Assembly (NCBI GenBank): GCA_035289425.1
Contig: DATDXC010000002.1
Span: forward strand, 474-64,473
Direction: 5' to 3'
Source: Candidatus Nanoarchaeia archaeon
GTDB lineage: Archaea; Nanobdellota; Nanobdellia; Woesearchaeales; DATDXC01
DNA length: 64,000 nucleotides
This document shows positions 4,332 through 60,788 of this stretch, in pieces. The position numbers and the translations under genes are program-made. The notes beneath the pieces are model-generated. The model searched no databases. It was not told the origin of the DNA and saw only the letters and a list, made by a program, of their open reading frames with translations. Each line of letters begins with the position of its first letter. The stretch's first letter is position 1.

Positions 4332-4627
4332 ACTTCAACCAAAAAGTCTGGAATCTCTGTAAGAAAATACCGGTCGGCAGGGTATCGACATACAAAATTC
4401 TTGCTAAATCCCTAAGGACAAAAGCATACCGAGCTGTTGGAAATGCCCTACGAGATAATCCGCACGCTCCTCTGGTGCCGTGCCACAGGATTATTAACAG
4501 TGATGGAACAATCGGCGGTTACAAAGGAAAAAAGAATTCAAAAGAAAAGAGTAGATTGTTGAAAAAAGAAGGTATAAAAATAGTGAATAAAAAGGTCGAT
4601 CCAAGGTTTATTTTTTCCTTTTCTTGA
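4328..4627 (+). CDS. methylated-DNA-protein-cysteine methyltransferase (Ogt DNA-binding/active-site domain only)
   Basis: Contains 'VPCHRIINSDGTIGGY', the PCHR active-site motif of the MGMT family. At 99 aa it is a single-domain version. Confidence 0.65.
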   Translation: MNFNQKVWNLCKKIPVGRVSTYKILAKSLRTKAYRAVGNALRDNPHAPLVPCHRIINSDGTIGGYKGKKNSKEKSRLLKKEGIKIVNKKVDPRFIFSFS

Positions 4628-42162: not shown

Positions 42163-43173
42163 ATGGATTACAGAAAGCTGATTGGATTCGGAAAGGGCTC
42201 ATTTGTAGTTTCAGTTCCAAAGTCATGGGTAGACAGGAATAATCTCGCCAAGGGAAACATGATAGGTATTGAAGAAACAGATGAGGGGATAATGCTCTAT
42301 CCTCCAACCCAAGACATAGAAAGTAAAGAGAAGCGGATTACCATCACTGCAGATGGCAAGGATATAGCTAGGATTAAGGCAGAGATCATTTCAGCCTATT
42401 TGAATTGTTTTGATGTCCTTGAAGTTGTTTCCACTGACCTCAAGACGCAAGGGCCAGAAATCAAGAGAATCCTACATGATTTGGCTGGGCTTGAGATACT
42501 TGAGCAAACCTCAGGTAGGCTTCTGGCGAAGGATTTGATAAACATTCGGGAAGTTTCTCTCCCAACCTTGATACGCAGGATGGATATAATTACGAGAAGC
42601 ATGATTGAGGATTCGATGAAGTGCATGACAAAGGAATGTGAACCATTGAGCATAGCACAAAGAGACCAGGATGTGAATCGGCTTCATTTTTTGGCACATC
42701 GTGTAATTAGGAAAGGATTTTCCAATCCGAGCTACGCTAAGGCAATTCAAAGAACACCATTGCAGTTGCAGGCAGACCAGCTCGTAGTACTCAGACTTGA
42801 AAAGGTTGCTGACCGACAGAAGAGGATTGCGCGCATGCTTGGATCCACCGGCTTAAGTGATATTGAGATAGGAAATCTCAAGAAGATTTACCAACACCTA
42901 TATCAGGCATATCTTGATGTCATGAAAGCATACTACACCAATGATGTAGAGCTTGCCTACAAGATTGAGCAGGACGGCAGGATTCGCATGAATATGTGCA
43001 GTACCTTCTTTACTGACCATAATCATCACCACGTCGAACTCAAGAAAAGCAAAGAACAGAAGTGCATTCACCGTCATGAATGTGGATCAACTGCATTGAT
43101 TCTGGAAAACCTGAAAGCGATGTCCACATCCATAAAATACCTGGCACAGACAATTATGGGTGGCGGAGGCTAA
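42163..43173 (+). CDS. PhoU-domain regulator with an N-terminal AbrB/SpoVT swapped-hairpin domain
   Basis: The N-terminus 'LIGFGKGSFVVSVPKSWVDRNNLAKGNMIGIE' is AbrB/MazE-like. Two PhoU-like helical repeats follow, ahead of a Cys/His-rich C-terminus. Confidence 0.7.
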   Translation: MDYRKLIGFGKGSFVVSVPKSWVDRNNLAKGNMIGIEETDEGIMLYPPTQDIESKEKRITITADGKDIARIKAEIISAYLNCFDVLEVVSTDLKTQGPEIKRILHDLAGLEILEQTSGRLLAKDLINIREVSLPTLIRRMDIITRSMIEDSMKCMTKECEPLSIAQRDQDVNRLHFLAHRVIRKGFSNPSYAKAIQRTPLQLQADQLVVLRLEKVADRQKRIARMLGSTGLSDIEIGNLKKIYQHLYQAYLDVMKAYYTNDVELAYKIEQDGRIRMNMCSTFFTDHNHHHVELKKSKEQKCIHRHECGSTALILENLKAMSTSIKYLAQTIMGGGG

Positions 43174-44261
43174 TACCCTTCAAACAAGATATCATTTCTG
43201 CCTTTTTTCAGCACAGTGCCAGAGCCATTCGAGACTTTGCCTACTGTTTTGGCTTCGCAGCCATATTTCTCTGCAATGGAGATAGCTGTATCAGCATCAG
43301 GTGTAATTATAAAGAACCCCATACCCATATTAAATTTTTGGTACATCTCCTTTTCGGAAAAGTTTGAATCCTCTTGCATGAGCCCGAATATCGGCTGTGG
43401 CTCCAGTGGATTGTCAATGATAAATCTAAAGCCTTTTACCCTGTTGAGATTCTTGAGCCCATAACCGGTATTATTCACTCCAATCATCTTGACTTTATTT
43501 GCAATGGCTGCAACAGCTTTGGTATATATCGCCGTAGGCTCCAACAATCTCTTTCCGATTGTTGACCCATCAAATTTTTCATCAAGTTTGTGTTTTCCTT
43601 TGTACATTCCTTTAAACTCTTTTCTTGTTTCAAATTCTCCTTTCAAAAGATTCAGTCGTAGATCGGTATACCCATTTGAATGAGGTCCCGAACTCCGTAA
43701 AGCCACAATCTTATCTTCAACCGAAATAGCAGCAGGTACATCACTTTTCTTGATAAAACCGATCATGCCGCCGGCAATATCAAACCCGTATCCGGGCTTG
43801 GCGCTCGAGATGAGTTCATCGACTGATGCGGTCTCTCCCTTACCGATATTGATATGGATAGAACTCCGTAATACATCTCCAGCATCGCATGCTTCAAGGC
43901 CTTTGACAATTCCCTTCATGAGCTCTCCGGTCAGTCCTCTTTCCTGGAGTTTGGATTGCACGGCAAAATAATCTATGAACAAGAATGGGCTTACTTTGCC
44001 CAAAGTCGCAAGATCGTTGGCAGACATCGCCACCAAATCAACACCTACAGTATCATACACATTCATTGCCTCGGCTAGTATGAGTTTTGTGCCAACACCA
44101 TCGATGGCGCATGCCAGATAATGCTTTGGAAACACTTCATCATTCTGAAATAATTCAGCAAATTTGCCTTCGGACAGCGGATGCATGTCTTTCTTTAGTT
44201 TCTGAGGGATAGCTTTTTTGATTGCTGCTACTGCATTGCTCTCTTTTTCTTGGTAATCCAT
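43170..44261 (-). CDS. purM: phosphoribosylformylglycinamidine cyclo-ligase (AIR synthase)
   Basis: Has 'AIDGVGTKLILAEA' and 'VGVDLVAMSANDLATLG', the PurM family motifs. The start is taken at Met22; the called ORF extends to 44324. Confidence 0.8.
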   Translation of the reverse strand: MDYQEKESNAVAAIKKAIPQKLKKDMHPLSEGKFAELFQNDEVFPKHYLACAIDGVGTKLILAEAMNVYDTVGVDLVAMSANDLATLGKVSPFLFIDYFAVQSKLQERGLTGELMKGIVKGLEACDAGDVLRSSIHINIGKGETASVDELISSAKPGYGFDIAGGMIGFIKKSDVPAAISVEDKIVALRSSGPHSNGYTDLRLNLLKGEFETRKEFKGMYKGKHKLDEKFDGSTIGKRLLEPTAIYTKAVAAIANKVKMIGVNNTGYGLKNLNRVKGFRFIIDNPLEPQPIFGLMQEDSNFSEKEMYQKFNMGMGFFIITPDADTAISIAEKYGCEAKTVGKVSNGSGTVLKKGRNDILFEGY

Positions 44262-44436
44262 AACACGTTTGTAATATATGTTGTTTATAAATATTCCGAT
44301 AACCAGAAAGTCAGTTTTGAACATCTCTAAGAAACTTAAAACTCGAAATTCGGATGGCTAACCTATTTGTTACACAAACCTTTTTCTTTGCCGCGGGGGG
44401 TATTAAGCATCCATCTGGCCCTATTTAATTCTGCTA

Positions 44437-46143
44437 CTAGGTAATCTTTAGTTCTTTCTTCCAAAAACTGCAGATCTTTTCAGCCTTTTTTGACGCAATG
44501 CCGGCATAGTTTTCAGGACTCTTGAGTATTTCAATCTGCTTTTTGCTGAACCGGGCAATATAAGGTTTTAATGAAGCATCCTTGAACAGCAATTCCCCAA
44601 AATGCTTTCCGGTTTGTTGGGACTTCAATGTCAATTCCCTCACAGCCTCATGTGCATCAGGATGATTGTGGGCTGCTAATAAGATATAGGCCGGTTCGGC
44701 AGTTATCATGTCTTTGTTCAGGTCAAAGTTTTTCTTCAGGTTGATTTTGTCAACAACCAACTTCGACATTGTCTTGTCAATTCGTATGATTGAGACAAAT
44801 AATCCGGCTAGTATTTCAGGTACAAATCTGGAAGTTGCCGAGTTTGTAAGATCTCTCTGATGTTCGCATATCTGATCCATGTACAAGGTTGACATCCTTG
44901 GCATGAATTCCTTCCACATCGATTTGACATTTTCAAAGTTTATGGGATTTCTCTTGTGCGGCATGGTGGATGATCCTACCTGCTGAGCCCCAAACGCCTC
45001 CGCAATCTCAGCTATCTCAGATCTTTGCAGATGCCTCATGTCATCAGCCAGATTTGCAATGACGCCAAAACAGGATGTTATTGCATGCATGAAGTCAGCC
45101 ATGTACTCTGCTTCCACAACCTGCGTTGAGATTGGAGAAGGTTTCAGCTTCAGTTCAGACAACACGAGCTTTTCAAATTCTTCGGGATCATCAAAAAATA
45201 AAGACGAAGCATTATAAGCGCCCACAGCGCCTGCCATCTTCCCTCTGAGGTCGTTAGCTGTTTTCTGGATAGCCTTGATCCTTGCTCCCAACCTTGATAC
45301 ATACTGTGCTATAGCAAACCCGAAAGTTATCGGCTCTGCATGCTGGCCGTGGGTCCTGCCTATCTGGAGAGTATCCTTTTCTCTCAGTGCCAGCCTGATC
45401 AGGGTATGCTCAAGCGCTGTTAATGCAGGAATCAACACAGTATTTGAGAAATCCTTGAATCGTGCCGCATCTGCAGTGCAGATGATGTCATGGGAGGTAG
45501 AAGTGAAATGCACATAGGGCTTTGCAGTATCTGAGACTTTCTTTCTGATGATGTTTGCCAACGCCCTGATATTATGTTTAATCCTGTCTTCCTCCAGGTA
45601 CACTTCCTGTGCAGAAACCTGTTTTGCCGCTGCAGCTACTTCATCAGCCGTGGACTTCCCACATATCTTTTTCTTGGCTAACGCAGATGTCAGGGCAGCT
45701 TCTGTCTTTGCCAAATATCTGATGAATCCTTCTTCTGATAAGTAGGGCCTTATCTTTGATCTAATTGCTTCATCCCTGCCGTAATACCTAAAGTCAAGCG
45801 GAGAAATTGTATCAAATAAGGGGATGGATTCAAAGATATCTGATTCTCCCATAGAAATCAGGGTTTCGATGTTGCGGAGCAATGCATTGCTTTTGTTCAG
45901 CTTGATTATCTTCCTGTTCTTATCCTGGGTTTCATGCACTAAATCATGCTTCTTGAACAATTGGATTGTTTGGTGAACCTTGGCAGGGCTTATCCTCAGT
46001 TTTTCTGCAATCTCCCGTAAGTGCAAAGATTCTCTTTCCAATAATCGCAGGATTTCAATATTTTTCTTGGTAAAAATTAATGATAGCTCCATCCGATGCA
46101 CCTCTCCAGGATAGATATGTTCATTATTTATAAACCTTTCCAT
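44437..46143 (-). CDS. purB: adenylosuccinate lyase with an N-terminal winged-HTH domain (in-frame fusion)
   Basis: Residues ~17-95 read 'NIEILRLLERESLHLREIAEKLRISPAKVHQTIQLFKKHDLVHETQDKNRKIIKLN', an ArsR/MarR-like wHTH. A PurB domain follows: 'ISPLDFRYYGRDEAIRSKIRPYLSEEGFIRYLAKTEAAL' (cf. E. coli 'VSPVDGRYGDK...'), 'GRTHGQHAEP' and 'GSSTMPHKRNPINFEN'. There is no stop between the two domains. Confidence 0.8.
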   Translation of the reverse strand: MERFINNEHIYPGEVHRMELSLIFTKKNIEILRLLERESLHLREIAEKLRISPAKVHQTIQLFKKHDLVHETQDKNRKIIKLNKSNALLRNIETLISMGESDIFESIPLFDTISPLDFRYYGRDEAIRSKIRPYLSEEGFIRYLAKTEAALTSALAKKKICGKSTADEVAAAAKQVSAQEVYLEEDRIKHNIRALANIIRKKVSDTAKPYVHFTSTSHDIICTADAARFKDFSNTVLIPALTALEHTLIRLALREKDTLQIGRTHGQHAEPITFGFAIAQYVSRLGARIKAIQKTANDLRGKMAGAVGAYNASSLFFDDPEEFEKLVLSELKLKPSPISTQVVEAEYMADFMHAITSCFGVIANLADDMRHLQRSEIAEIAEAFGAQQVGSSTMPHKRNPINFENVKSMWKEFMPRMSTLYMDQICEHQRDLTNSATSRFVPEILAGLFVSIIRIDKTMSKLVVDKINLKKNFDLNKDMITAEPAYILLAAHNHPDAHEAVRELTLKSQQTGKHFGELLFKDASLKPYIARFSKKQIEILKSPENYAGIASKKAEKICSFWKKELKIT

Positions 46144-46164
46144 AAAAATAAGAATAAATGTTCA

Positions 46165-46929
46165 TCATTTAATAACATTTAAGGCTTCGGCATGCACCCT
46201 TCCGTTAGACGCCATAAAATCTTTGGTGCCGGGCTTCCAGGGATTCCCTAAAAGATCAGTCACTATTCCGCCAGATTCAAGTAATATGAGGTACACAGCA
46301 GCATAATCCCAAACATTAACATCAAAGTCAATGTGCATCTCTGTCCTTCCTTCAGCAACAAGAAGCGTATCATATACCGCAACCCCAAAGACCCTATAAC
46401 GCCAGGCTTTGTGCGCCAGCTTTCCCATGATCCGAAGCTTTTTGTCTGTGTCATGACGAAACCGTGCGTCAAAAGTGAACATAGACTTATCAAGCCTATC
46501 GTTTTTATTTACATTGATTCTCTTCCCATTTCTAAAAGCTCCCTTTCCCTTCTCAGCTATGTACATCCTATCCAGACAGGGCAGGTACACCACACCAAGT
46601 ATAATCTCATCTTTGTGCTGCAGAGCAATCGAAACCCCAAACAGCGGGTTTTCAATGAGAAAATTATGAGTTCCATCCAAAGGATCTATAATCCAGGTAT
46701 ACTCTGAATTATTTTTGATTTGAGCTAATTCCTCATCAAGCATGTTATGGGTGGGAAACTTGCTAAGGATAATCTGGCGTATCTTTTTGATGCTTTCGAT
46801 GTCTGCCTGGGAAACATAACTGTCACCATCCTTGAGCCTCTTCGTAATCTTTCTTCCATAATACTTAAGAAGAATTCCACCAGCAGCCTTGGCTGCCCGG
46901 ATTGCCGTTTGTTTAAAGGTACCCTGCAT
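46165..46929 (-). CDS. suhB: inositol monophosphatase / archaeal FBPase-IMPase family protein
   Basis: Has 'WIIDPLDGTHNF' and 'WDYAAVYLILLESGG', the IMPase family motifs. Confidence 0.75.
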   Translation of the reverse strand: MQGTFKQTAIRAAKAAGGILLKYYGRKITKRLKDGDSYVSQADIESIKKIRQIILSKFPTHNMLDEELAQIKNNSEYTWIIDPLDGTHNFLIENPLFGVSIALQHKDEIILGVVYLPCLDRMYIAEKGKGAFRNGKRINVNKNDRLDKSMFTFDARFRHDTDKKLRIMGKLAHKAWRYRVFGVAVYDTLLVAEGRTEMHIDFDVNVWDYAAVYLILLESGGIVTDLLGNPWKPGTKDFMASNGRVHAEALNVIK

Positions 46930-47878
46930 CTTTTAGATTCCTCTGTATTCGCTGATGCACATCTCTTACCTCAGCTTCAAAAGTATTGCCGGTTATCATC
47001 TCATACATCTGGATATATCGCTTGCTCAATTCGGTTACTAGCTCTTGAGGGGCTTCCGGAAGTTTCTTATCTTTATAGGGATCGCAATGCTCCATGAACC
47101 AAAGACGGAGAAACTCTTTGTCGATATTCTCAGGCTCATTGCCTTTTGCAATCCTTTCTTGATAGCTATCTTTTATCCAGAATCTGGATGAATCAGGAGT
47201 ATGAATTTCATCTATCAGGTATATGTTGCCATCCTCATCATAACCAAATTCATATTTTGTGTCAACCAAAATGAGCCCATTTTCAGACGCAATCCGCGTT
47301 CCCCTTTCAAAAAGCCGCAATACCTTGTCTGACACAAAATCCCATTGCTCCTGCGTCATTAATCCTTTCTTTACAATCTCTTCGGCCGATATCTTTTCAT
47401 CATGGATCTCTGACTTGGTGGTAGGGGTGATGATGGGCTTTTCAAACCGCTGATTTTTCTTGAGGCCTTCAGGAAGCACATTGCCGCAGAATATCCGTTC
47501 ACCTTTCTCATAGGCGGTCCAGGCTGAAGTTGAAGTTACGCCAGTAATGTAGCCTCTGACCACAAATTCAACAGGGAACACTTTTAATCTCTTGCAGACT
47601 ACTACATTGGGATCTGGCACATCTATGACATGATTTTGGATAATATCCTGGGTGTTTTCAAACCAAAAGGCTGAAGTTTGGGTCAGAACCTGGCCCTTGA
47701 AAGGTATGGTAGCCAAATTCCTGTCAAAAGCAGACTGCCTGTCTGTTGAGATCAAGAACACCTTATCATCAGTTATGTAGACATCCCGCACTTTTCCTTT
47801 GTATTTCTTTCCGAGCTTGAAATCTGTTGATTTAAGGGTATGACTCATCTGTTTCTTGATATCCTCATCGGACATCAT
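46913..47878 (-). CDS. purC: phosphoribosylaminoimidazole-succinocarboxamide synthase (long form)
   Basis: Has 'GKVRDVY', 'LISTDRQSAFD' and 'LILVDTKYEFG', the SAICAR synthetase motifs. Length is 321 aa. Confidence 0.85.
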   Translation of the reverse strand: MMSDEDIKKQMSHTLKSTDFKLGKKYKGKVRDVYITDDKVFLISTDRQSAFDRNLATIPFKGQVLTQTSAFWFENTQDIIQNHVIDVPDPNVVVCKRLKVFPVEFVVRGYITGVTSTSAWTAYEKGERIFCGNVLPEGLKKNQRFEKPIITPTTKSEIHDEKISAEEIVKKGLMTQEQWDFVSDKVLRLFERGTRIASENGLILVDTKYEFGYDEDGNIYLIDEIHTPDSSRFWIKDSYQERIAKGNEPENIDKEFLRLWFMEHCDPYKDKKLPEAPQELVTELSKRYIQMYEMITGNTFEAEVRDVHQRIQRNLKDAGYL

Positions 47879-48648
47879 TTTTGAGCCTCCTTATCAGCTG
47901 CTAGCACTTCTTTCTTGCTTTCCTGTCTTAATTCCCAGAGTTTGTCAGTACAATCACCCAAAATTTCAGCAGCAGCTATCGCCGCATTCTCTCCTCGATT
48001 CAGTCCCACCCATAATCCATGGCTTGAATGCTCCAATATGTTCAATGCAGCTTCAGCAGTATCATCTTTTTTAGGCAGCAAGGGACAATAGATGACAAGC
48101 TCTTCTTTGGGGGCAAGAGGCTCATCAAAATAGGTGAATACTATGTTTATCGCATCATCAGCTGGTGCATCAGCATAGGTAAATTCAACGCCCAGTCTTT
48201 CCAATGTTGCAGCTGCTTTTTCAACTGCTTTTTCTCTCTTATCTCCAATGAGAATAATCCTAGACAGGCCTTTTCCCATGGCACTAGCTTGTTGTGCCGC
48301 AATCTCCGCCTGGTTGACGCCAACAGTCAGGACCGGAATTCCCGGAGGCATCTGCATGCAGCTCAACAATGCATCTAATCCAGAATAATTGTTATGGACC
48401 GGAACCCCAATGACTGGCTTAAGGGTCTTTGCAGCTATTACTCCAGGCAATGCTGCACTCAAACCTGCTCCTGCAATAACCACATCGAAATCATCTTTCT
48501 GGATTGCTTTATCCACTTCATCGGGAGTTCTATGGGCCGATAGCACTCTTAAATCAACCTGAACTTTGTGTCTTTTAAGTTCAGAAGCTATCTTTTTGTA
48601 CACGTCTGCATCTGATTTTGAACCAAACATGACTAATGCTTTCATCAT
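47875..48648 (-). CDS. purE: N5-carboxyaminoimidazole ribonucleotide mutase / AIR carboxylase with an internal ~95 aa insertion
   Basis: Has 'VMFGSKSD', 'SAHRTP', 'VVIAGAGLSAALPGVIAA' and 'PVIGVPV'. The C-terminal 'NAAIAAAEILG' is separated from the rest by a PurE-like partial repeat ('ILIGDKREKAVEKAAATLERLGVEF'). Confidence 0.75.
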   Translation of the reverse strand: MMKALVMFGSKSDADVYKKIASELKRHKVQVDLRVLSAHRTPDEVDKAIQKDDFDVVIAGAGLSAALPGVIAAKTLKPVIGVPVHNNYSGLDALLSCMQMPPGIPVLTVGVNQAEIAAQQASAMGKGLSRIILIGDKREKAVEKAAATLERLGVEFTYADAPADDAINIVFTYFDEPLAPKEELVIYCPLLPKKDDTAEAALNILEHSSHGLWVGLNRGENAAIAAAEILGDCTDKLWELRQESKKEVLAADKEAQK

Positions 48649-49079
48649 ATCACCTTCATTTCCTGATAATGCTCATTGTATAATAATTTTTTTGCTATTT
48701 CTTCAGCTTGTTGCCTATCGATGCCAAACAAAGCCCATACAATGCCTTTCTGCATTGATTTAATCTCCCTAAAACAAAGTCTGTTTTGCAGTATGGACAA
48801 CAGGCTTTGGCAGGTATCTCCTGAATCAGTGATAAGGAGGTATGCTGCAAACCGTTTTTTAAGCTCATTGGATGCTGTGTTCTTGTTCACATTTACCAAA
48901 ATATCAGTCTTATTGATTTTTTCTGCAAACTTTTTACCATCCCCTTCTATATCAAACCGGTAATAGATCAACCGCTCTAATCTGGTTACTTTATAACCAA
49001 TCTTCTCGATAGTATGCAAGGTGGTAATGGCTGTCGTATCAGGTATCTTCAGCCCCACAAACAATTCTACTATGCTCAT
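48645..49079 (-). CDS. purS: FGAM synthase PurS subunit (extended, 144 aa)
   Basis: The N-terminal ~75 aa 'VELFVGLKIPDTTAITTLHTIEKIGY' match PurS. A second half of similar size follows. Confidence 0.65.
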   Translation of the reverse strand: MSIVELFVGLKIPDTTAITTLHTIEKIGYKVTRLERLIYYRFDIEGDGKKFAEKINKTDILVNVNKNTASNELKKRFAAYLLITDSGDTCQSLLSILQNRLCFREIKSMQKGIVWALFGIDRQQAEEIAKKLLYNEHYQEMKVI

Positions 49080-52168: not shown

Positions 52169-52361
52169 TTTTCCCGCTTAAAATGGAATAGAGTATGTAT
52201 ATAAAGTTTTTGGATAGGATAACCACTTATCACTTTATACAAGAAATTTGGTCATGGAAATCAAAATTTTAGGCATATAATCCTTTTACACTCAAAATTT
52301 GACAGTTTTCGTATAAAAAGAGTTCTCGGTTTCGTTTAACGATACAACGAAAAAGTGACCT

Positions 52362-52394
52362 CCCCCCCACCCTAAAGGGTGGGGGTTTAAACCC
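52362..52394 (-). terminator. GC-rich hairpin with a downstream T-tract (putative terminator of the CaCA gene) overlapping a perfect GGGTTTAAACCC palindrome
   Basis: The hairpin is CCCCCACCC-TAAA-GGGTGGGGG (52364-52385). On the minus strand it is followed by TTTTTCGTTG. The palindrome GGGTTTAAACCC is adjacent. The surrounding region is strongly AT-rich. Confidence 0.35.
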
Positions 52395-52541
52395 TTATAA
52401 CACTAAAAGGAAGTTTGAAAAAATAATCTTTTGGGTATTTCTTTAGATAGTTGCTGAAATGTCTGTAAATAAAAACTTCTTCGTAAAATCTTTGATTTTG
52501 CTATAATTATACTACATATTAACATCCCATTATATTCTTCC

Positions 52542-60751: not shown

Positions 60752-60788
60752 CGGTAATTTTATAAATAAATAAAATTTCTAGATAGGC

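What the first reader, a model, noticed from the sequence alone, without database searches (positions are those of the whole stretch)
44437..46143. In-frame fusion of a winged-HTH domain to adenylosuccinate lyase (PurB) inside the purine operon
The first ~95 codons of the purB ORF encode a convincing ArsR/MarR-like winged HTH ('NIEILRLLERESLHLREIAEKLRISPAKVHQTIQLFKKHDLVHETQDKNRKIIKLN'). The canonical PurB N-terminus ('ISPLDFRYYGRDE...') follows directly, with no stop codon between the two. An AT-rich genome would rarely keep an accidental 97-codon open extension.

A DNA-binding domain fused to a purine enzyme suggests a metabolite-sensing autoregulator of the pur cluster (purL-Q-S-E-C-suhB-purB-purM). 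I am not aware of such an architecture for PurB.
Basis: partly seen in the sequence, partly recalled or inferred. Interest (0 to 1): 0.65.

Follow-up and report, generated by a model that had tools for sequence, protein, structure and literature searches.

The report
PurB enzyme fused to self-repressor domain
In a group of tiny DPANN archaea, the purine enzyme adenylosuccinate lyase carries a built-in DNA-binding domain that probably switches off its own gene by sitting on a conserved palindrome over its promoter, a compact form of gene control not previously described for this enzyme.

Summary
ORF 44437-46143 (-) encodes an ArsR/SmtB-like winged helix, a short acidic linker and a complete adenylosuccinate lyase (PurB), with no stop between them. 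The fusion is conserved in more than 100 proteins and about 62 species-level Woesearchaeota/Nanoarchaeia genomes. The wHTH is under the same purifying selection as the enzyme core (dN/dS 0.054 vs 0.055).

One correction: translation starts at Met18 (46092), giving 551 aa. The first 17 codons ("MERFINNEH") are the gene's promoter read as protein.

New finding: the promoter holds a near-invariant 26-nt element with a dyad, GTTTAT-AAATA-ATGAAC (O1, 46119-46135), overlapping the TATA box. A weaker dyad (O2, 46160-46176) lies 41 bp upstream. All 49 exact dyads in 950 kb of related DNA lie upstream of this gene; none precedes purL, purQ, purE, purC or purM. The dyad also precedes the same wHTH when it is standalone or fused to other enzymes.

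Best explanation: a bifunctional enzyme and autorepressor of its own gene. Regulation of the whole pur cluster is not supported, and metabolite sensing is untested. This is a new variant of a known kind (RbkR, BirA, PutA). No published description was found.

The parts
44437..46092 (-). wHTH::purB coding sequence, 551 aa plus stop.
   Evidence: P0001 (551 aa, 100% identical) and more than 100 homologues start at M-E/D-L/I...IFTKKN.
45853..46092 (-). ArsR/SmtB-like winged helix-turn-helix domain (aa 1-80). Helices at 9-20, 25-32 and 36-48 (recognition helix 'SPAKVHQTIQ'), wing 52-65, C-terminal helix 70-80.
   Evidence: dN/dS 0.054. Mean net charge +6.7.
45808..45852 (-). Variable acidic linker (about aa 81-95). 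Low pLDDT.
   Evidence: 11-18 aa in homologues, mean net charge -2.2.
44437..45807 (-). Adenylosuccinate lyase (PurB) part, with the N-terminal 'SPLDFRYYGR' motif, the catalytic His residues, TSHD and the GSSTMPHKRNP loop.
46115..46140 (-). 26-nt conserved promoter/operator element, GAAAGGTTTATAAATAATGAACATAT.
   Evidence: A PWM scan of 990 kb found 71 hits: 61 within 200 nt upstream of the fusion start, and most of the rest also upstream of it.
46119..46135 (.). Operator O1: dyad GTTTAT-AAATA-ATGAAC overlapping the TATA box (TTTATAAATA, 46125-46134).
   Evidence: 49 of 49 exact dyads in 950 kb lie no more than 400 nt upstream of the wHTH gene; shuffles give 0-5; no other copy in the 64-kb window.
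46160..46176 (.). Operator O2: weaker dyad GTTATT-AAATG-ATGAAC, 41 bp upstream of O1. It overlaps the suhB stop codon (46165-46167).
   Evidence: A second dyad sits at a fixed -40 to -42 bp offset in 51 of 64 distinct loci; 45% score at least 10/12 against 3.6% of AT-matched controls.
46099..46107 (-). Shine-Dalgarno-like GGAGAGGTG, 6 nt before the ATG at 46092.
   Evidence: Sequence. In many orthologues the ATG lies 10-11 nt after the element (TATA centre about 25 nt from the ATG), which predicts leaderless mRNAs.
46093..46143 (-). This is non-coding promoter and 5' leader read as protein.
   Evidence: The same 'FINNEH' artefact appears in the over-extended calls P0033, P0105, P0131 and P0150.
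46144..46148 (-). T5 run between O2 and O1; a possible oligo-T terminator for suhB transcripts (inference only).
   Evidence: Sequence; not tested.

Best explanation
The gene encodes one 551-aa polypeptide that is both an active adenylosuccinate lyase and the repressor of its own promoter. The N-terminal ArsR/SmtB-like winged helix, tethered by an 11-18-residue acidic linker, is predicted to dimerise and bind the 17-bp dyad O1 (GTTyAy-N5-rTrAAC). O1 overlaps the gene's own TATA box and extends to about -10. A weaker dyad, O2, lies 40-42 bp (about four helical turns) upstream.

Occupying O1 would exclude TBP/TFB or RNA polymerase, so transcription of the fusion gene falls as the protein accumulates (negative autoregulation). 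PurB enzymes are homotetramers, so one tetramer would carry four winged helices, enough for two dimers, and could bridge O1 and O2 cooperatively.

Shown here: the fusion, its fold, its conservation and selection, the intact catalytic residues, and the specificity and position of the dyads. Inferred: DNA binding, repression, and tetramer bridging. Speculative: that SAICAR, adenylosuccinate or the products modulate DNA binding. The linker enters PurB only about 8 residues before the invariant substrate-binding 'RY' motif (its role is recalled from E. coli and T. maritima ASL structures), which offers a plausible coupling route.
For: (1) The fusion is real and conserved.

(2) The wHTH has a full ArsR/SmtB fold, including the alpha1/alpha5 helices used for dimerisation in that family. 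It is basic. Its recognition-helix and wing residues are invariant (S35, P36, V39, K58, N59).

(3) dN/dS is 0.054 for the wHTH and 0.055 for the PurB core, with synonymous sites saturated. The upstream 26-nt non-coding element is nevertheless nearly invariant.

(4) The dyad is specific. All 49 exact matches in 950 kb lie upstream of the wHTH gene. With one mismatch, 73 of 91 do. The 64-kb window has only O1 and O2.

(5) O1 overlaps the TATA box. In many loci the TATA-to-ATG distance of about 25 nt predicts leaderless transcripts, so the site acts on DNA and not on RNA.

(6) O2 sits at a fixed 40-42 bp offset.

(7) The dyad follows the wHTH, not PurB. The same or a similar dyad precedes standalone 85-aa wHTH genes (L152, L180), wHTH-nucleotidyltransferase genes (L067-L073), wHTH-NnrD (L195) and wHTH-PEP-utilizer (L196).

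(8) An independent search for the DNA element in metagenomes returned mainly contigs with the fusion directly downstream.

(9) The PurB catalytic residues are invariant in 40 diverse members and align with T. maritima ASL.
Against: There is no binding or expression data; everything is comparative. The window's own wHTH falls just below every Pfam wHTH gathering threshold. Only about 10 kb either side of the gene was scanned in other genomes, and 64 kb here, so further targets cannot be excluded. The tetramer and its geometry relative to a 41-bp operator spacing were not modelled. A different factor could bind the dyad, although that would not explain why the dyad tracks the wHTH across five different architectures. 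About 40 of the 118 metagenome matches to the 19-nt element lie in unrelated AT-rich or GC-rich contigs and look like chance.
Confidence: 0.7

Rival explanations
1. Pathway regulator. The fusion protein senses a purine intermediate and controls the whole pur cluster or purine regulon, not just itself.
For: The gene lies in a conserved purL-purQ-orf144-purE-purC-suhB-[fusion]-purM cluster. Known enzyme-repressors such as RbkR control pathway genes as well as themselves. Genes outside the scanned regions (purF, purD, purN/T, purH/P/O, purA, guaAB, transporters) were not examined.
Against: No dyad occurs upstream of purL in the window or in 12 other loci; these are ordinary BRE/TATA promoters. 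There are no systematic dyads before purQ, purE, purC, suhB or purM. In several genomes the fusion gene is not near any pur gene yet keeps the element (L001, L004, L005, L055). The same wHTH and dyad occur on non-purine enzymes.
Confidence: 0.13
2. The wHTH is not a DNA-binding regulator here. It could be a protein-protein or oligomerisation module, and the conserved upstream element would then be bound by another factor or be an unusual core promoter.
For: Winged helices are sometimes used for protein contacts. The window's domain is sub-threshold for every Pfam wHTH model. There is no direct binding evidence.
Against: The recognition helix and wing are the most conserved and basic part of the domain. 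The element is found only with this wHTH family, whatever the fused enzyme. It is a dyad of the size typical for wHTH dimers. It is not a generic promoter: nothing else scores even 14 of 42.6 bits elsewhere in 990 kb, apart from one weak hit.
Confidence: 0.1
3. The PurB moiety is a catalytically dead ligand-sensor domain of a transcription factor, and the real PurB is encoded elsewhere.
For: The NCBIfam purB equivalog score (279.9) is below its trusted cutoff (326.2), and PF10397 is below its cutoff. Whole genomes were not searched for a second purB.
Against: All the catalytic and signature residues checked are invariant in 40 members and align with T. maritima ASL. dN/dS is as low as expected for an enzyme core. 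The gene occupies the purB position in the pur cluster, and no other purB was seen in any locus. Where a MAG has two copies, both are fusions.
Confidence: 0.05
4. Artefact: two separate genes (a small wHTH and purB) joined by a sequencing, assembly or frameshift error.
For: Standalone 85-aa wHTH genes of this family exist upstream of another enzyme gene (L180). Some annotations call only the short PurB (P0049, P0057).
Against: The same in-frame junction is found in more than 100 independent assemblies from many studies. There is no conserved internal start or Shine-Dalgarno sequence in the linker. The short calls sit in loci where the long ORF is intact (L037).
Confidence: 0.02

Closest known systems
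RbkR, the archaeal riboflavin kinase/regulator (Rodionova et al. 2017, PMC5397151)
   Same: An archaeal wHTH fused to an active biosynthetic enzyme. Operators were predicted by comparative genomics and include its own gene. The enzyme's ligands could modulate DNA binding (CTP stimulates and FMN suppresses in RbkR).
   Different: The enzyme (PurB, a tetrameric lyase, versus riboflavin kinase) and the lineage (DPANN/Woesearchaeota) both differ. [quoted passage not shown] No experimental data exist for the PurB fusion.
ArsR/SmtB-family repressors (NolR, CzrA, SmtB, CadC, HlyU)
   Same: The fold matches (TM 0.79-0.85). They are dimeric wHTH proteins that bind inverted repeats overlapping their own promoters and autoregulate (family knowledge).
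   Different: They are small standalone sensors with metal or thiol sites. Here no conserved Cys or His/Asp sensory cluster is seen, and the domain is tethered to a 456-aa enzyme. The window's domain is below the Pfam HTH_5 cutoff, although relatives pass it.
BirA, NadR and PutA, the bacterial bifunctional enzyme/repressors (from general knowledge)
   Same: One polypeptide combines a metabolic enzyme with a DNA-binding domain that represses its own or pathway genes, and the enzymatic state gates DNA binding.
   Different: The enzymes, DNA-binding folds (PutA uses a ribbon-helix-helix) and domain of life all differ. Ligand gating has not been shown here.
Canonical adenylosuccinate lyase (T. maritima 1C3C, P. 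aerophilum 1DOF, E. coli 2PTR)
   Same: The catalytic domain is homologous (E = 2e-48 to 1C3C) with the conserved catalytic His residues, the GSSxMPxKxNP loop and pur-cluster context.
   Different: None of the solved PurB chains retrieved (380-482 aa) carries an N-terminal DNA-binding domain.

Membership tests
Adenylosuccinate lyase (PurB), fumarase/aspartase superfamily | Pfam Lyase_1 and ASL_C domains above the gathering score | tested here: met
   Lyase_1 138.3 bits (cutoff 27); ASL_C 53.2 bits (cutoff 35).
Adenylosuccinate lyase (PurB), fumarase/aspartase superfamily | NCBIfam purB equivalog (TIGR00928) above its curated cutoff | tested here: not met
   279.9 bits against a 326.2 cutoff. 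It is still the best-scoring family, covering 432 of 436 profile positions. This is a divergent subfamily.
Adenylosuccinate lyase (PurB), fumarase/aspartase superfamily | Catalytic His residues, TS.D motif and the GSSxMPxKxNP signature loop | tested here: met
   Aligned to T. maritima 1C3C. Invariant in 40 homologues: H173, T199-S200-H201-D202, H248/H251, S374-S375, K380, N382, E387.
Adenylosuccinate lyase (PurB), fumarase/aspartase superfamily | Homotetramer with SAICAR and adenylosuccinate lyase activity | not testable with these tools
   Needs protein biochemistry or multimer modelling.
Adenylosuccinate lyase (PurB), fumarase/aspartase superfamily | Genomic association with purine biosynthesis genes | tested here: met
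   purL-purQ-orf144-purE-purC-suhB-[fusion]-purM in the window and many loci.
ArsR/SmtB-type wHTH repressors | Pfam HTH_5 (PF01022) or HTH_20 above the gathering score | tested here: not met
   In the window protein, HTH_5 scores 18.4 (cutoff 22) and HTH_20 scores 19.8 (cutoff 27). Close family members P0125, P0138 and P0190 pass HTH_5 with 25.5-28.2 bits.
ArsR/SmtB-type wHTH repressors | alpha1-alpha2-alpha3-alphaR-beta1-beta2-alpha5 fold | tested here: met
   The model has pLDDT 92.9. Foldseek: NolR 4omz TM 0.85 and rmsd 1.6 A; CzrA 1r1u TM 0.85. Profile against PDB: CzrA 3e-4.
ArsR/SmtB-type wHTH repressors | Metal or thiol sensory site (alpha3N Cys or alpha5 His/Asp/Glu cluster) | tested here: not met
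   No conserved Cys and no His/Asp cluster in alpha5. The invariant residues are T8, N11, H24, R26, I28, A29, S35, P36, V39, K58, N59, I63 and L65. This was judged by inspection only.
ArsR/SmtB-type wHTH repressors | Dimer binds an inverted repeat overlapping its own promoter (autoregulation) | tested here: inconclusive
   A specific dyad over the TATA box was found by comparative genomics. Binding itself cannot be tested here.
Bifunctional enzyme/transcriptional regulators (RbkR, BirA, NadR, PutA type) | A DNA-binding domain fused to a catalytically competent enzyme | tested here: met
   (competence is inferred from residues only).
Bifunctional enzyme/transcriptional regulators (RbkR, BirA, NadR, PutA type) | Operators upstream of its own gene and of other genes in the same pathway | tested here: inconclusive
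   Own gene: yes. Other pur genes within the scanned regions: none. Whole genomes were not scanned.
Bifunctional enzyme/transcriptional regulators (RbkR, BirA, NadR, PutA type) | DNA binding modulated by the enzyme's substrate or product | not testable with these tools
   Needs EMSA with and without SAICAR, adenylosuccinate, AICAR, AMP and fumarate.

The most novel reading that the evidence does not exclude
The wHTH, together with its O2-O1/TATA promoter, may be a portable, self-contained autorepression cassette. DPANN archaea would have grafted it repeatedly onto the 5' ends of unrelated enzyme genes: PurB, NAD(P)H-hydrate dehydratase, nucleotidyltransferases, a PEP-utilizer domain and a RecR-like Toprim. 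Each of these enzymes would then control its own level. In the PurB case, the tetramer would bridge two operators four helical turns apart, and occupancy of the active site by SAICAR or adenylosuccinate would release the DNA. That would make PurB itself the purine-flux sensor in organisms with very few transcription factors.
Probability: 0.3. Interest if true: 0.75.

Novelty: new variant of a known kind. Interest (0 to 1): 0.56.

Why it matters
Transcriptional regulation in DPANN archaea is almost uncharacterised, and no purine-pathway regulator is known for them. This finding provides a defined protein, a defined 17-bp operator pair and a clear, inexpensive experiment: EMSA or footprinting with and without purine intermediates.

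It would add PurB, an enzyme used twice in purine synthesis, to the short list of enzymes that double as transcription factors. It also suggests that genome-reduced archaea economise on regulators by attaching one autorepressor module, with its promoter, to several enzymes.

In practice it corrects annotations. These proteins are variously named 'ArsR family regulator', 'lyase family protein' or truncated 'adenylosuccinate lyase', and some calls, including the NCBI 568-aa call for this locus, translate the promoter.

Tried and rejected
Met98 lies in the variable linker and is not conserved.
- A start at Met1 of the ORF (46143) is rejected. Codons 1-17 are the conserved DNA element. Most orthologues have no in-frame ATG there, and other callers give 551 aa.
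- No operator was found at purL (52169-52300 and orthologous regions); these are ordinary BRE/TATA promoters.
- There is no operator before purM. It has its own TATA box about 30 nt before the ATG at 44261, without the dyad.
- The idea that the 26-nt element is the lineage's generic promoter is rejected by PWM and dyad scans of about 1 Mb.
- MAGs with two loci were considered as possible paralogues. In every case with enough upstream sequence (L019, L027, L029, L049, L074, L009) suhB or pur genes lie upstream; L008, L010, L028 and L036 are too close to a contig end to tell. Mixed strains in one bin therefore seems more likely than paralogy.
- The representative-library search with the wHTH profile returned fragments and other architectures but no full-length fusion, probably an effect of 50% clustering. 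It was used only for the architecture survey.
- Rfam found nothing in the long 5' leaders of some orthologues or anywhere in the window.
- The sigma-70 promoter and terminator scan is not informative for an archaeon.
- Literature searches found no prior description.
Full report
**1. The observation**

The ORF listing confirms a 568-aa ORF at 44437..46143 on the minus strand with no internal stop (DNA read).

Pfam places Lyase_1 (5e-40) and ASL_C (4e-14) in residues 146-519. Residues 19-85 give a pile of sub-threshold winged-helix hits. The best is PF25212, 27.3 bits against a 27.6 cutoff, followed by HTH_20, MarR_2, HTH_5 and HTH_24. NCBIfam's best family is purB TIGR00928 (3e-83, residues 119-557), although it falls below the trusted cutoff.

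GC content is about 42%. By my own estimate from base composition, an accidental 97-codon open stretch has a probability of roughly 0.003. The decisive argument, however, is conservation.

**2. The fusion is conserved and selected**

Of the 120 best database homologues (64-100% identity), 117 are 547-577 aa and cover 96-100% of the query, and 103 of them are 550-559 aa. Sources name them 'adenylosuccinate lyase', 'lyase family protein' or 'ArsR family transcriptional regulator', from Woesearchaeota or Nanoarchaeota MAGs.

The N-terminal block 'IFTKKN.EIL.LL...LHIR.IA..L.ISPAKVH.TIQLFKK..L..E...KN+.II.LNK' is as conserved as the enzyme. Mean column identity is 70% for the N-terminal block and 74% for the full length.

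A scan of one genome per GTDB species with the wHTH alone found 74 archaeal loci. In about 62 of them the wHTH reads in frame into a PurB of 545-561 aa.

Nei-Gojobori estimates on closely related pairs give a median dN/dS of 0.054 for the wHTH and 0.055 for the PurB core. Synonymous sites are saturated (pS 0.6-1.0).

Met98 lies in a variable acidic linker (11-18 aa, mean net charge -2.2) and is not conserved, so the 'true start at Met98' refutation fails.

**3. The fold**

A profile of 33 N-terminal domains hits solved MarR and ArsR winged helices: ZitR/AdcR at 2e-6, CzrA at 3e-4 and AF_1382 at 5e-4.

AlphaFold gives helices at 9-20, 25-32 and 36-48, a beta hairpin at 52-65 and a helix at 70-80, with pLDDT 78-92 in the full-length model. 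The linker has low confidence, and a PurB fold follows.

The isolated domain models at pLDDT 92.9. It superposes on ArsR/SmtB repressors: NolR and CzrA at TM 0.85 and rmsd 1.6-1.7 A, also SmtB, CadC and HlyU, and the MarR proteins AdcR and ZitR. The domain is basic (mean +6.7). It has no conserved Cys or His/Asp cluster of the kind ArsR/SmtB sensors use.

**4. The enzyme part looks active**

Alignment with T. maritima ASL (1C3C, E = 2e-48) shows both catalytic His residues, the TS.D motif, the Q of STQVV, the GSSxMPHKxNP loop and the following Glu. All are invariant in 40 diverse fusions.

**5. The start codon and the promoter**

The 100%-identical database protein P0001 is 551 aa and starts at Met18 of the ORF. 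NCBI's HLC95777.1 uses the 568-aa call.

Aligning the DNA upstream of the fusion in 64 loci revealed a near-invariant element, GAAArGTTTATAAATAAyGAACrwTT. It ends 9-30 nt before the ATG in most loci and 50-160 nt before it in some. In the window it is at 46115-46140.

The same 'FINNEH' artefact appears in other over-extended calls (P0033, P0105, P0131, P0150).

The element contains a BRE/TATA-like AAAGTTTATAAATA. Where it ends 10-11 nt before the ATG, the TATA centre is about 25 nt from the start codon, which is the geometry of leaderless archaeal mRNAs. In the window there is a short leader carrying GGAGAGGTG (46099-46107).

**6. The element is specific and is a dyad**

- In the 64-kb window, the 18-mer with up to 3 mismatches occurs at 46117-46134 and 46158-46175. 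A third, unrelated AT-rich match is at 60759. The expected number is 0.17.
- A PWM scan of 990 kb (76 loci plus the window, both strands, with a permissive threshold of 14 out of 42.6 bits) gives 71 hits. 61 lie within 200 nt upstream of the fusion start. Nearly all the others are also upstream of it, at longer distance. One weaker hit precedes a wHTH-nucleotidyltransferase gene.
- The element has twofold symmetry, GTTyAy-N5-rTrAAC. It is a perfect GTTTAT-AAATA-ATAAAC in several lineages.
- The exact dyad occurs 49 times in 950 kb, every time within 400 nt upstream of the wHTH gene. Shuffles give 0-5. With one mismatch, 73 of 91 hits are there, and the remainder fall below the shuffle expectation.
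- A second, weaker dyad sits at a fixed offset of -40 to -42 bp in 51 of 64 distinct loci. 45% of loci score at least 10 of 12 arm matches, against 3.6% of AT-matched control windows. In the window this is GTTATT-AAATG-ATGAAC at 46160-46176, overlapping the suhB stop codon.

**7. The dyad tracks the wHTH, not PurB**

I searched metagenome contigs for the exact 19-nt DNA element.

- About 62 have the fusion immediately downstream.
- About 11 end at a contig edge just past the element, with suhB or purC upstream.
- Two (L152, L180) have a standalone 85-aa wHTH of the same family.
- Two (L139, L167) have a VIT1/ferritin-like gene directly downstream of the element; in L139 the fusion follows that gene, while the L167 contig ends first.
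- About 40 are unrelated AT-rich or GC-rich contigs, apparently chance matches.

The nearest non-PurB relatives are nucleotidyltransferase fusions of about 180 aa in Micrarchaeota-labelled MAGs. They are preceded by tandem palindromes, GTTTAC-TTTTT-GTAAAC and GTTTAT-AAATT-GTAAAC, 22 bp apart, and the second overlaps the TATA box.

A wHTH-NAD(P)H-hydrate dehydratase fusion (P0137, L195) has a perfect GTTCAT-AATTA-ATGAAC over its start codon and another dyad upstream. A wHTH-PEP-utilizer fusion (P0138, L196) has O1 and an O2 41 bp upstream.

In L180 the standalone wHTH sits directly upstream of a full-length Nnr gene. Separate adjacent genes in one genome and a fused version in another suggests how such fusions arise. 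A RecR-like Toprim fusion also exists (P0125).

**8. What is not regulated**

The purL promoter in the window (TATA CTTTATATAC at about 52199-52209) and those in 12 other loci are ordinary BRE/TATA promoters without the dyad. purM has its own TATA box about 30 nt before an ATG at 44261 and no dyad. No dyads recur before purQ, purE, purC or suhB. In some genomes the fusion gene lies away from other pur genes but keeps its element.

The evidence therefore supports autoregulation of a separate transcription unit. It does not support control of the pur cluster.

**9. Mechanism**

Shown here:
- a single polypeptide with an ArsR-like wHTH and an intact PurB;
- a conserved, specific pair of dyads at its own promoter, one over the TATA box.

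Inferred:
- wHTH dimers bind O1 and O2;
- binding at O1 blocks TBP/TFB or RNAP, the usual logic of archaeal repressors, which gives negative autoregulation;
- the PurB tetramer supplies two wHTH dimers that could bridge sites four helical turns apart.

Speculative:
- substrate or product binding modulates DNA affinity. The linker joins PurB about 8 residues before the invariant 'RY' of SPLDFRYYGR, which as I recall contacts the substrate in E. coli and T. maritima ASL structures.

**10. Comparison and novelty**

The closest functional analogue is archaeal RbkR, a wHTH fused to riboflavin kinase, which is autoregulated and ligand-modulated (PMC5397151). More distantly it resembles BirA, NadR and PutA. 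Structurally the domain is ArsR/SmtB-like, but the window's copy misses the Pfam thresholds and the sensory sites. None of the solved PurB chains retrieved (380-482 aa) carries such a domain.

Five full-text literature searches found no description of a wHTH-PurB. I rate it a new variant of a known kind. It is of moderate-to-good interest because it is immediately testable and hints at a reusable autorepressor cassette in DPANN archaea.

**11. Caveats**

- All regulatory claims are comparative.
- Only about 20 kb per foreign genome was scanned.
- Many MAG records are titled 'uncultured Methanosarcinales' although their loci are Woesearchaeota-like.
- E-values for the wHTH are modest for the single sequence.
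- The oligomer was not modelled.

Noticed in passing
window 44259-44324 (-): The purM ORF as listed (start 44324, 384 aa) seems over-extended in the same way as purB. 'IGIFINNIYY' is a TATA-like sequence (TTTATAAAC) read as protein, and the likely start is the ATG at 44261 (MDYQEKES, 363 aa). TIGR00878 purM matches from residue 5 of the shorter form.
   Followed up: partly
window 48645-49079 (-): A 144-aa ORF between purQ and purE is conserved in that position in more than 25 loci (36-51% identity) but has no Pfam or NCBIfam hit. It sits where purS would be expected but is about twice the size of PurS.
   Followed up: partly
window 47875-48648 (-): purE is 257 aa, but the AIRC/PurE match covers only residues 5-123. 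The C-terminal half of about 130 aa is unassigned.
   Followed up: no
window 46165-46929 (-): An inositol-monophosphatase-family gene ('suhB') is conserved inside the pur cluster, just upstream of the fusion, in most loci. Its best NCBIfam hit, though sub-threshold, is histidinol-phosphatase HisN (192 bits against a 275 cutoff). This is intriguing given the AICAR link between the histidine and purine pathways.
   Followed up: partly
window about 52350-52400 (-): A GC-rich inverted repeat (GGGTTTAAACCCCCACCCTTTAGGGTGGGGGGGAGG) lies in the otherwise AT-rich spacer between the Na/Ca-exchanger gene and purL. There is no Rfam match.
   Followed up: no
window 42163-43173 (+): A 336-aa protein with an N-terminal AbrB/MazE-like domain and a weak PhoU domain is conserved next to purM, convergent with it, in about 10 loci.
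   Followed up: no
L016, L025, L028, L032, L033, L039, L044, L049, L053, L056, L057, L069: In about a dozen orthologous loci the O1 element lies 100-370 nt from the fusion start, instead of 10-30 nt. The intervening sequence is often GC-rich and looks structured. No Rfam family matched in the seven of these loci that were scanned.
   Followed up: partly
L139 (element at 4555-4573, minus strand), L167 (5628-5646): A VIT1/ferritin-like gene of about 288 aa lies directly downstream of the O2-O1 promoter, 11-13 nt after the element. In L139 the wHTH-purB gene follows it; the L167 contig ends within the inserted gene. In L139 at least, the autoregulated promoter appears to drive a two-gene unit.
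   Followed up: partly
L003, L006, L007, L011, L012 and many other CAY*/CAZ* records: Many MAG records titled 'uncultured Methanosarcinales archaeon' carry loci with Woesearchaeota-type synteny and 50-73% wHTH identity. The label looks like a placeholder or misassignment.
   Followed up: no
P0125 (149 aa), P0143 (241 aa): Further architectures carry the same wHTH: one fused to a RecR-like Toprim plus RecR_C fragment, and one fused to a hydrophobic, apparently membrane-associated tail.
   Followed up: partly
L008/L029, L010/L019, L009/L027, L028/L036, L049/L074: Five MAGs each contain two different wHTH-purB loci. In every copy with enough upstream sequence, suhB or pur genes lie upstream; L008, L010, L028 and L036 are too close to a contig end to tell. 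This suggests two strains binned together and not paralogues.
   Followed up: partly
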